A stretch of DNA of 23,301 bases, taken from a virus. Lineage: Duplodnaviria > Heunggongvirae > Uroviricota > Caudoviricetes. Below are positions 276 through 507 of the stretch, piece after piece. The notes below the pieces were generated by a model. It saw only the letters and a program-made list of their open reading frames with translations. It ran no database searches and had not been told where the DNA came from. Location of the stretch: positions 1-23,301 of IMG/VR virus record IMGVR_UViG_2531839468_000008; one strand, 5' to 3'. The translations under genes and the position numbers were made by a program. How positions within the stretch are numbered: the first letter of the stretch is position 1; each line of letters begins with the position of its first letter.

Positions 276-507
276 CCCCCGTTACTTTATTCGTACCCCT
301 TATAATGGGGTGTTAGCCAGCCAGACCCGGCATGATTACTGCCCCCAGTCGTCCATGATCCGGGGGGTGATGTCACCGGGTCTGGTGGGGCGCTGGTAAC
401 CGCTAATAGGGGTCAGGTCAGGCACTTTTGCCGGGACCGTCTGTAACGTGGATGCCGGTACCTGCTCCCCGTGGTTATCTGGTTAACCCATATACAAGGG
501 AGACAGA
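276..507 (+). ncRNA. Candidate structured non-coding left end of the IS110 element (bridge-RNA-like); hypothesis only
   Basis: About 230 bp of non-coding sequence upstream of the transposase start. Contains a 10-bp inverted repeat CCAGACCCGG (320-329) / CCGGGTCTGG (376-385) and further GC-rich pairing potential. IS110-group elements are known to encode a bridge RNA in this position. Confidence 0.3.

What the first reader, a model, noticed from the sequence alone, without database searches (positions are those of the whole stretch)
276..507. Structured non-coding left end of the IS110 element: candidate bridge RNA
IS110-group elements have a long non-coding left end upstream of the recombinase that, in characterised members such as IS621, encodes a bridge RNA with separate target-binding and donor-binding loops. 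This element has about 230 bp of non-coding sequence before the transposase ATG at 508. It contains a perfect 10-bp inverted repeat (CCAGACCCGG 320-329 / CCGGGTCTGG 376-385) and further GC-rich pairing potential (GGGGGGTGATGTCACCGGG around 360-380). If it is a bridge RNA, its loops should carry sequences complementary to the N-leader target around the insertion site, which would explain the site choice.
Basis: partly seen in the sequence, partly recalled or inferred. Interest (0 to 1): 0.55.

Follow-up and report, generated by a model that had tools for sequence, protein, structure and literature searches.

The report
Bridge RNA gene of ISEc20
The non-coding stretch in front of the transposase of this insertion sequence (ISEc20) very probably encodes a bridge RNA, the guide RNA that IS110-type elements use to pair their own ends with a target site. 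This is an expected, already predicted feature of the family, and here it sits in a copy whose transposase gene is broken.

Summary
Window 276-507 is 232 nt of non-coding left end before the ATG at 508.

The element is ISEc20, an IS110-group insertion sequence with DEDD and Tnp domains. It lies in the lambda-type N leader.

The left end is conserved at 72-82% nucleotide identity in about 70 related elements from Burkholderiales and Microbacteriaceae. It folds into a 5' hairpin, a closing helix and two long stem-loops. Of 32 tested pairs, 18 show compensatory changes.

A covariance model built only from non-enterobacterial relatives hits window 320-470 (+) at 152 bits, E = 3.5e-29.

The second stem-loop carries UAAUAGGGG, identical to the right end, and this segment co-varies with the right end across clades. 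It also carries GUAACGUGG, complementary to the left terminus.

The first stem-loop carries CCGGGGGGUG, complementary to CACCCCCCGG at the insertion site. Nothing matches the GAACGAA flank.

Durrant et al. 2024 already list a bridge RNA in the left end of the ISSfl4/ISEc20 cluster. This is an ordinary, uncharacterised member of a known kind.

This copy has a frameshifted transposase and no promoter in its integrated state. The exact crossover inside the C run is unresolved.

The parts
276..280 (+). C run at the left junction (CCCCC). It is shared between target and donor, and the crossover lies in or next to it.
   Evidence: 57 distinct insertion sites read N-CCCC-GTTAC. The empty N-leader site reads GAACGAAAACCCCCCGCG.
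281..288 (+). Left terminus GTTAC (right donor half-site), overlapping a -10-like hexamer TACTTT at 283-288.
   Evidence: GTTAC is invariant in all loci. TAC(T/C)(A/T)T is conserved. It is complementary to 443-451 (I4).
295..311 (+). P1, the 5' hairpin (ACCCC UUAUAAU GGGGU). The TATAAT at 301-306 is its loop.
   Evidence: A hairpin is kept in all homologues with different stem sequences: GCCUCGA/UCGAGGC, ACCUUGA/UCAAGGU, and longer stems in Actinobacteria.
312..319 (+). P2 5' strand (GUUAGCCA) of a closing helix.
   Evidence: It pairs with 480-487. Homologues have UUGGCC/GGCCAA, UCGGCC/GGCCGA and ACGGCC/GCCGU, which are compensatory.
320..386 (+). Target-binding stem-loop.
   Evidence: 15 pairs, 7 with changes on both sides, 98.6% of cells paired.
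338..347 (+). Candidate left target guide ACUGCCCCCA, same sense as the target's C run.
   Evidence: G-CCCCC-A is nearly invariant in the family. It matches only the C run, not the flank.
360..369 (+). Candidate right target guide CCGGGGGGUG. Its reverse complement is CACCCCCCGG. The last two bases may be a handshake guide.
   Evidence: 9 consecutive bases (361-369) are complementary to the window's right junction, and 8 to the empty lambda site ACCCCCCG. It is invariant in 40 of 44 relatives.
388..469 (+). Donor-binding stem-loop. The basal helix is 388-402/456-469 and the apical hairpin is 416-438.
   Evidence: 12 basal pairs, 8 with changes on both sides. The apical helices also co-vary.
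404..412 (+). Left donor guide UAAUAGGGG, identical to the right end at 1718-1726.
   Evidence: 9-nt exact match, reached by 6 of 1000 shuffles. Elements with RE ATAGGGAC have AUAGGGAC here in 13 of 13 loci from two clades. Elements with ATAGGGGC have AUAGGGG here.
443..451 (+). Right donor guide GUAACGUGG. Its reverse complement is CCACGTTAC.
   Evidence: It is invariant in all relatives. It is complementary to CCCCGTTAC at 277-285 in 8 of 9 positions. It matches perfectly the CACGTTAC junctions of L009, L010 and L047.
480..487 (+). P2 3' strand (UGGUUAAC). This is the last conserved structural element and the probable 3' limit of the RNA.
508..1703 (+). ISEc20 recombinase gene, inactivated by a 1-nt deletion after position 673. 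It is split into ORFs 508-795 and 783-1703.
   Evidence: The Pfam domains PF01548 and PF02371 are split over the two ORFs.
1709..1714 (+). TTGACA in the right end, a -35-like hexamer that would face the LE -10-like hexamer only in an RE-LE junction.
   Evidence: TTGAC(A/G) is conserved in every relative.
1718..1728 (+). Right terminus TAATAGGGGCA (left donor half-site).
1729..1734 (+). C6 run at the right junction, followed by GCGATT of the N leader (right target half-site).
   Evidence: CCCCCC is present in 86-97% of 59 sites. It is the only C run of 6 or more on this strand of the window.

Best explanation
Window 276-507 is the left end of an ISEc20 copy. From about 295 to 487 it encodes, on the + strand, a structured RNA of roughly 195 nt that is the bridge RNA of this element.

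Anatomy:
- 5' hairpin (295-311).
- Closing helix (312-319/480-487).
- Target-binding stem-loop (320-386).
- Donor-binding stem-loop (388-469).

Donor loop. [quoted passage not shown] Target loop. [quoted passage not shown] GCCCCCA (341-347) has the sense of the C run itself.

Inferred mechanism, by analogy with IS621. After excision the joined right and left ends are held by the donor loop. An A-C5-6-(G) site, such as the one in the N leader, is held by the target loop. The DEDD/Tnp recombinase then exchanges strands inside the C run.

What is shown and what is inferred. Shown: the conserved structure, the guide matches and the target motif. Inferred: transcription, recombinase binding and catalysis.

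This copy is probably inert on its own. Its recombinase gene is frameshifted, and no sigma-70-like promoter precedes the RNA in the integrated state.
For: - Element identity: ISEc20 with PF01548 and PF02371.
- Conservation: the LE is conserved at 72-82% nucleotide identity in relatives whose proteins are only 73-82% identical.
- Helices: four helices with 18 of 32 pairs changed on both sides, 97.4% paired, and slid controls at 28-51%.
- Further helices: the 5' hairpin and the closing helix are kept with different sequences.
- Strand: many G-U pairs (for example columns 58-133 and 74-118) fit only the + strand.
- Covariance model: a held-out model gives 152.5 bits, E = 3.5e-29, at 320-470 (+). 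The only other hit in the window is a 24-bit overlap on the opposite strand.
- Left donor guide: it equals the RE end and co-varies with it (G to A) in two clades, 13 of 13 loci.
- Right donor guide: it is complementary to the LE terminus.
- Right target guide: it is complementary to the junction and to the empty-site motif A-C6-G.
- Insertion sites: 57-59 independent sites share only the C run.
- Pseudo-site deletions: IS-adjacent deletions end at pseudo-sites containing CGTTAC, as the right donor guide would predict.
- Literature: bridge RNA mechanism (PMC11208160, PMC11208158). 'Detected Bridge RNA End = LE' for the ISSfl4/ISEc20 cluster.
Against: - No transcript data are available.
- Rfam 15 gives no hit in 1-2400, even at E <= 10.
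- The candidate left target guide matches nothing beyond the C run, and the left flanks carry no information.
- The right-target-guide match in this one sequence is not rare, because G runs survive dinucleotide shuffling (42 of 1000).
- CCCCC and GGGGGG could simply pair with each other as an RNA helix. They are too invariant to tell.
- The TTGACA / TACTTT spacing is 17 only if 3 nt separate GGGG from GTTAC. Natural head-to-tail junctions have 5-6 nt, which gives 19-20.
- No promoter-like site is found at 200-560 in the integrated state.
- The recombinase gene is frameshifted.
Confidence: 0.87

Rival explanations
1. The structure is only a cis-acting 5' leader of the transposase mRNA. It would control translation or stability and would not guide DNA recognition.
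For: - The region is contiguous with the CDS.
- No terminator-like site lies between it and the ATG.
- The closing helix ends about 10 nt before the ribosome-binding site.
Against: - A leader has no reason to carry a copy of the right end that co-varies with the right end.
- Nor would it need a complement of the left terminus or of the target motif.
- The loop sequences are more conserved than the helices. That is the pattern of guide or protein-contact segments.
- The family's mechanism is established for IS621.
Confidence: 0.06
2. The conserved blocks act as DNA, as sub-terminal recombinase-binding sites or repeats, not as RNA.
For: - The left end holds DNA-level inverted repeats of the terminus (CCCCGTTAC / GTAACGTGG) and a direct copy of the right end.
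- Many IS families use such sites.
Against: - Compensatory changes keep four helices paired, including many G-U pairs that would be A-C on the other strand.
- That is a constraint at the RNA level.
- The architecture matches that described for IS110-group bridge RNAs.
Confidence: 0.04
3. The sequence is an intact bridge-RNA gene, but in this prophage it is a silent relic. It would not be transcribed and would have no role in the host or phage.
For: - The transposase is frameshifted after position 673.
- No promoter-like site lies upstream in the integrated state.
- pL transcription would run antisense through the element.
Against: - The LE is 100% identical to copies with intact transposases.
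- In IS621 a bridge RNA supplied in trans supports recombination, so an intact ISEc20 copy elsewhere in the same genome might supply recombinase or RNA for this copy.
- Read-through or weak promoters cannot be excluded.
Confidence: 0.5

Closest known systems
IS621 bridge RNA (E. coli; Durrant et al. 2024, PMC11208160; Hiraizumi et al. 2024, PMC11208158)
   Same: - Encoded in the LE of an IS110-group element, upstream of a DEDD/Tnp recombinase.
- Has a 5' hairpin, then a target-binding stem-loop, then a donor-binding stem-loop of similar sizes (67 and 82 nt here).
- The 5' side of the donor loop has the sense of the left donor, and the 3' side is complementary to the right donor.
- A -35-like box lies in the RE, and a -10-like box overlaps right-donor positions 12-14 plus TAT.
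- With 5 nt between GGGG and GTTAC, the donor has the same ATA-7-2-5-TAT geometry.
   Different: - There is no detectable sequence similarity.
- The recombinase is 398 aa against 326 aa.
- An extra closing helix encloses both stem-loops.
- The target loop has little or no apical stem.
- Both loops are nearly invariant across the family, whereas the IS621-type target loop is variable.
- The target is a C homopolymer rather than an 11-14 nt REP sequence.
- The core cannot be pinned to one dinucleotide (CA, AC or CC instead of CT).
ISSfl4/ISEc20 entry in Durrant et al. 2024, Supplementary Table 5
   Same: It is the same element cluster. A bridge RNA was detected by their covariance models in the LE.
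   Different: That table gives only the end in which a model hit was found. I found no structure, guide assignment or target for this cluster in the text and supplements held here. No paper on ISEc20 or ISSfl4 RNA turned up.
seekRNA / bridge RNAs of the IS1111 group (from my own knowledge, and Durrant 2024 section 12)
   Same: An RNA encoded in a non-coding end pairs with both donor and target.
   Different: IS1111-group RNAs lie in the RE, downstream of the recombinase, and those elements have long sub-terminal inverted repeats. Here the RNA is in the LE, and only an ATA...T(A/T)T flank is seen.
IS492 (IS110 family; from my own knowledge, not checked here)
   Same: A short sequence shared by target and element flanks the insertion, and a promoter is assembled at the circle junction.
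   Different: IS492 uses CTTGT rather than a C run. The comparison rests on memory only.

Membership tests
IS110-group bridge RNA | Encoded in the long non-coding left end of an IS110-group element, upstream of a DEDD (PF01548) + Tnp (PF02371) recombinase | tested here: met
   The element is ISEc20. Both Pfam domains are present. The LE is 232 nt.
IS110-group bridge RNA | [quoted passage not shown] | tested here: met
   18 of 32 pairs with compensatory change. The differences are an added closing helix and a target loop that is nearly a terminal loop.
IS110-group bridge RNA | Donor-binding loop: the 5' side has the sense of the left donor (RE end), and the 3' side is complementary to the right donor (LE start) | tested here: met
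   404-412 equals 1718-1726, and 443-451 is complementary to 277-285. G/A covariation with the RE in 13 of 13 loci of two clades.
IS110-group bridge RNA | Target-binding loop: the 3' side is complementary to the right target, and the 5' side has the sense of the left target | tested here: inconclusive
   The right side is met. CCGGGGGGUG faces CACCCCCCG(G/C) and the empty-site ACCCCCCG. The left side matches only the C run, and left flanks are random. The loop is too invariant for covariation.
IS110-group bridge RNA | A core dinucleotide shared by target and donor and covered by all four guides | tested here: inconclusive
   The guides are compatible with CA or AC, or with CC if U449 is bulged. 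Junctions have 3, 5 or 6 nt between GGGG and GTTAC. Length conservation implies 5 nt for this copy.
IS110-group bridge RNA | A sigma-70-type promoter rebuilt across the RE-LE junction of the circle | tested here: inconclusive
   TTGAC(A/G) in the RE and TAC(T/C)(A/T)T in the LE are both conserved. The spacing is 17 with a 3-nt junction but 19-20 with the 5-6-nt junctions seen in tandem copies. There is no promoter in the integrated state.
IS110-group bridge RNA | Hit by a bridge-RNA covariance model | tested here: met
   My own model, built from 44 non-enterobacterial relatives, gives 152.5 bits, E = 3.5e-29, at 320-470 (+). The published models reported a hit in the LE of the cluster. Rfam 15 gives no hit.
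IS110-group bridge RNA | An RNA of about 150-200 nt is made, binds the recombinase and is required for recombination | not testable with these tools
   No expression or biochemical data are available for ISEc20 or ISSfl4.

The most novel reading that the evidence does not exclude
In this clade (ISEc20, ISSfl4 and relatives in Burkholderiales and Actinobacteria) both loops of the bridge RNA are fixed. The crossover lies inside a C homopolymer that target and donor share, so the register can slip.

This would explain three things:
- RE-LE junctions of 3, 5 and 6 nt.
- The replacement of target bases next to the run: AA becomes CC in this window.
- The asymmetry between left (N-CCCC) and right (CACCCCCC) junctions.

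It predicts that insertion-excision cycles leave changes in C-run length, that is, frameshift footprints, in target genes. The frameshifted C7/C9 alleles of dgcE and of an alpha/beta hydrolase gene at known ISSfl4/ISEc20 insertion points fit this prediction. It also predicts that junction length tunes the junction promoter (17 against 19-20 nt spacing).
Probability: 0.2. Interest if true: 0.55.

Novelty: new member of a known kind. Interest (0 to 1): 0.3.

Why it matters
The result confirms, for one more element, that the long left end of IS110-group insertion sequences is a guide-RNA gene.

It explains why this IS sits where it does. The N leader holds the only A-C6-G run on that strand of the 23-kb window.

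For bridge-recombinase engineering, the clade offers a compact orthologue with a very short, homopolymeric target and a differently closed RNA scaffold.

For genome annotation, about 1,100 complete E. coli genomes carry a full-length match to this element. In the two annotated copies I inspected, its LE carries no RNA feature.

None of this changes the picture of how such elements work.

Tried and rejected
1. Rfam scan of 1-2400 at E <= 10 gave only two chance hits, none in the LE.

2. TATAAT at 301-306 as the RNA's promoter: rejected. It is the loop of a hairpin whose stem co-varies, it is not conserved (TCC, GTAAG and others), and no -35 precedes it.

3. Simple models of the junction (a 5-bp target duplication, or a donor GGGGCA-C5-GTTAC with the crossover anywhere in the run): rejected. 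Occupied sites lack the A or AA that precedes the C run in the empty sites.

4. Fixing the core by conservation of length gave 5 nt for the window. For the dgcE and hydrolase sites it gave 3 or 5, depending on which empty allele is taken. The C runs at those sites are polymorphic, so this led nowhere firm.

5. A heteroduplex model based on the IS621 4-nt stagger explains the direction of the left/right asymmetry but not its 90:10 ratio.

6. Searching for the left flank GAACGAA, or for any left-flank match in the RNA, found nothing above chance. Left flanks of 57 sites are random beyond N-CCCC.

7. A scan of metagenome contigs for an RE-LE junction of the E. coli element found no match.

8. Searches for the RNA's sequence in the supplements of Durrant 2024, and for supplements of Perry 2025, found nothing.

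Full report
**What is in the window.** The minus strand of 1-216 is the start of a lambda-type N gene. The N leader continues at 217-275 and resumes at about 1735, with the nutL boxB near 1826-1840.

Between these lies an insertion sequence. Megablast against complete E. coli genomes matches window 272-1740 at 99.5% to elements annotated 'IS110-like element ISEc20 family transposase' in UTI89, CFT073, Nissle 1917 and more than a thousand other genomes.

The intact protein (398 aa) has PF01548 (DEDD_Tnp_IS110) and PF02371. The window copy lacks one base after position 673. This splits the gene into ORFs 508-795 and 783-1703.

**The observation.** The 232 nt from 276 to 507 contain no gene reading toward the ATG at 508. 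On this sequence alone the fold is only mildly better than shuffles (z = -2.18).

**Relatives.** A scan of one genome per species returned 80 loci encoding proteins 73-99% identical. They come from Shigella and E. coli, from Burkholderia, Paraburkholderia, Duganella, Cupriavidus and Pandoraea, and from Microbacterium, Pseudoclavibacter, Cryobacterium and Leucobacter.

Their left ends align with window 277 to about 480 at 72-82% nucleotide identity. This region is therefore as conserved in DNA as the protein is in amino acids.

All elements begin (N)CCCC-GTTAC(T/C)(A/T)T and end CTTGAC(A/G)A-N8-9-ATAGGGGCA-CCCCCC.

**Structure.** In an alignment of 46 distinct left ends, the helices are as follows.

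- A second stem-loop has a basal helix at 388-402/456-469 and an apical hairpin at 416-438.
- For these four helices, 97.4% of cells are standard pairs. 18 of 32 pairs show changes on both sides. No shuffle of 500 reaches the observed values. Sliding the partners by 1-3 columns drops pairing to 28-51%.
- Many pairs are G-U, which fits only the + strand.
- Upstream, a hairpin (295-311) is kept with quite different stems in different clades.
- The linker GUUAGCCA (312-319) pairs with UGGUUAAC (480-487). Most relatives have UUGGCC/GGCCAA, and others have UCGGCC/GGCCGA or ACGGCC/GCCGU.
- The TATAAT at 301-306 is the loop of that hairpin and is not conserved.

A covariance model built only from the 44 non-enterobacterial sequences, with only the co-varying helices as structure, finds window 320-470 on the + strand at 152.5 bits, E = 3.5e-29. 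Nothing else is found in the 23.3-kb window except a 24-bit overlap on the opposite strand.

**Guides for the donor.**

- The 5' side of the second loop reads GCU(A/G)AUAGGGG(C/U). In the window, UAAUAGGGG (404-412) is identical to the right end at 1718-1726. A 9-mer match is reached by 6 of 1000 dinucleotide shuffles.
- Elements whose right end is ATAGGGAC have AUAGGGAC in the loop. These are Duganella/Rugamonas on one side and Pseudoclavibacter/Herbiconiux/Rathayibacter on the other, 13 of 13 loci. Elements with ATAGGGGC have AUAGGGG. This is covariation between an RNA loop and a DNA end about 1.3 kb away.
- The 3' side reads GUAACGUGG (443-451) and is invariant in all relatives. It is complementary to the left terminus: CCCCGTTAC at 277-285 in 8 of 9 positions, and CACGTTAC perfectly.
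- This is the arrangement described for the IS621 donor-binding loop.

**Guides for the target.**

- Fifty-seven to fifty-nine distinct insertion sites share nothing but C's. The left junction is N-CCCC-GTTAC and the right junction is ATAGGGG-CA-CCCCCC. Sequence beyond these is random.
- Empty sites were recovered for three insertions:
  - N leader: GAACGAAAACCCCCCGCG in lambda, phage Chlobot and E. coli prophages. All 25 best full-length matches have this length.
  - dgcE: CCAGAACACCCCCTAACAG or CCAGACCCCCCCAACAG.
  - An alpha/beta hydrolase gene: GCCACCACCCCCACAC or GCCCCCCCCCACAC.
  - The common motif is A followed by five or six C.
- The 3' side of the first loop, CCGGGGGGUG (360-369), is the reverse complement of CACCCCCCGG. 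Nine consecutive bases pair with the window's right junction, and eight with the empty lambda site.
- The 5' side carries G-CCCCC-A (341-347), which has the sense of the run.
- Outside the IS, the window holds only one other run of six: G6 at 12856-12861, which reads TCCCCCCA on the other strand.
- Site choice is therefore explained by the C run with its flanking A and G.
- The match of a G run is not statistically rare in one sequence (42 of 1000 shuffles). The two C/G tracts could also pair with each other in the free RNA. The loop is too invariant for a covariation test.

**Junction, core and promoter: what is not settled.**

- Three right junctions read ATAGGGGCA-CGTTAC (L009, L010, L047). 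In L009 this goes with the loss of about 580 bp up to a site GTTCCGCGTTACC in mdtA. That is what an excision-type reaction onto a pseudo-left-end recognised by GUAACG would give.
- That 3-nt junction puts the conserved TTGACA of the right end 17 nt from the conserved TACTTT of the left end, and it fits the right donor guide without a bulge.
- Head-to-tail ISEc20 copies have 5 nt (CCCCC) or 6 nt (CACCCC) between GGGG and GTTAC. There are three in a row in E. coli SMN197SH3 and two on plasmid pO177B1.
- Conservation of length against the empty N-leader site requires 5 nt for the circle that made the window copy.
- With 5 nt the donor reads ATA-GGGGCAC-CC-GTTAC-T(A/T)T, the same 7+2+5 geometry flanked by ATA/TAT as in IS621. 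The GU after the G run would then be a handshake guide for donor positions 6-7, as in IS621. But the promoter spacing becomes 19.
- In the window the AA that precedes the run in the empty site is replaced by CC. Across the family, the A is kept at right junctions and is nearly always absent at left junctions.
- The 4-nt stagger between top- and bottom-strand cuts found for IS621 would create heteroduplex at exactly these positions, but it does not predict the observed proportions.
- A 2025 preprint argues for copy-out and top-strand transfer in another IS110 element, so the chemistry itself is still debated.
- I conclude only that exchange occurs in or next to the shared C run and that the register varies.

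**State of this copy.**

- The left end is identical to that of copies with intact recombinase genes.
- The recombinase gene is broken.
- No promoter-like or terminator-like site is found at 200-560.
- pL would transcribe the element antisense.
- The RNA gene is intact but probably silent here. In IS621 a bridge RNA supplied in trans supports recombination, so an intact ISEc20 copy in the same cell might mobilise this one. That is an inference.

**Comparison with what is known.**

- The bridge RNA of IS621 was defined by RNA-seq, binding, in vitro recombination and cryo-EM.
- The same paper predicted bridge RNAs in 85.7% of IS110-group elements. Its Supplementary Table 5 lists 'ISSfl4, Detected Bridge RNA End LE, clustered elements ISEc20; ISSfl4'. 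The existence of this RNA is therefore already on record as a model hit.
- I found no structure, guides, target or experiment for it.
- The features I tested place it in the family: location, recombinase, architecture, donor guides with covariation, and a right target guide.
- The left target guide, the core and the junction promoter remain inconclusive. Expression is untested.
- It differs from IS621 in the closing helix, in a target loop with almost no apical stem, in the invariance of both loops, and in a homopolymeric target.

**Verdict.** This is an ordinary, uncharacterised orthologue of a known kind of RNA, in a decayed copy of the element. Interest is low to moderate. The only point that might repay work is register slippage in the C run and its possible footprints in target genes.

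Noticed in passing
window 508-1703 (deletion after 673): The ISEc20 recombinase gene is a pseudogene here. One base is missing relative to the UTI89 copy, which splits it into ORFs 508-795 and 783-1703. Four further substitutions lie at 1146, 1297, 1417 and 1565.
   Followed up: yes
window 216-275 and 1735-1900: The IS sits in the lambda-type N leader, between nutL boxB (about 1826-1840, minus strand) and the N start codon (216, minus strand). It is antisense to pL transcription, so it may reduce N expression and prophage induction.
   Followed up: no
L089 (E. coli SMN197SH3 chromosome) and L090 (plasmid pO177B1): There are head-to-tail arrays of three and two complete ISEc20 copies. The internal junctions are GGGG-CCCCC-GTTAC and GGGG-CACCCC-GTTAC.
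   Followed up: partly
L009/L010 (Shigella flexneri SFBU1023, E. coli ECMA0423) versus L086: The right end of one copy is joined directly to mdtA at GGGGCA|CGTTACC. About 580 bp, including ibsA, is missing relative to E. coli CH4799. The site in mdtA (GTTCCGCGTTACC) mimics the element's left terminus. L047 (Cupriavidus) shows the same kind of junction.
   Followed up: partly
L084 versus L085 (dgcE); L087 versus L088 (alpha/beta hydrolase gene): At two ISSfl4/ISEc20 insertion points, some IS-free E. coli genomes carry alleles annotated 'frameshifted' with pure C7/C9 runs. Intact alleles read AACACCCCCT and ACCACCCCC at the same places. These may be excision footprints or ordinary homopolymer slippage.
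   Followed up: no
window 12856-12861: This is the only other run of six G/C in the 23.3-kb window. It reads TCCCCCCA on the minus strand and is unoccupied. It lacks the flanking A and G of the used site.
   Followed up: no
L012, L023, L029, L036, L053 (right ends): In a few relatives the G's of the right terminus are partly replaced by C's: ATAGGGCCCC..., ATAGGCCCC..., ATAGCCCCCC. It looks as if target-derived C's had overwritten the end of the element.
   Followed up: no
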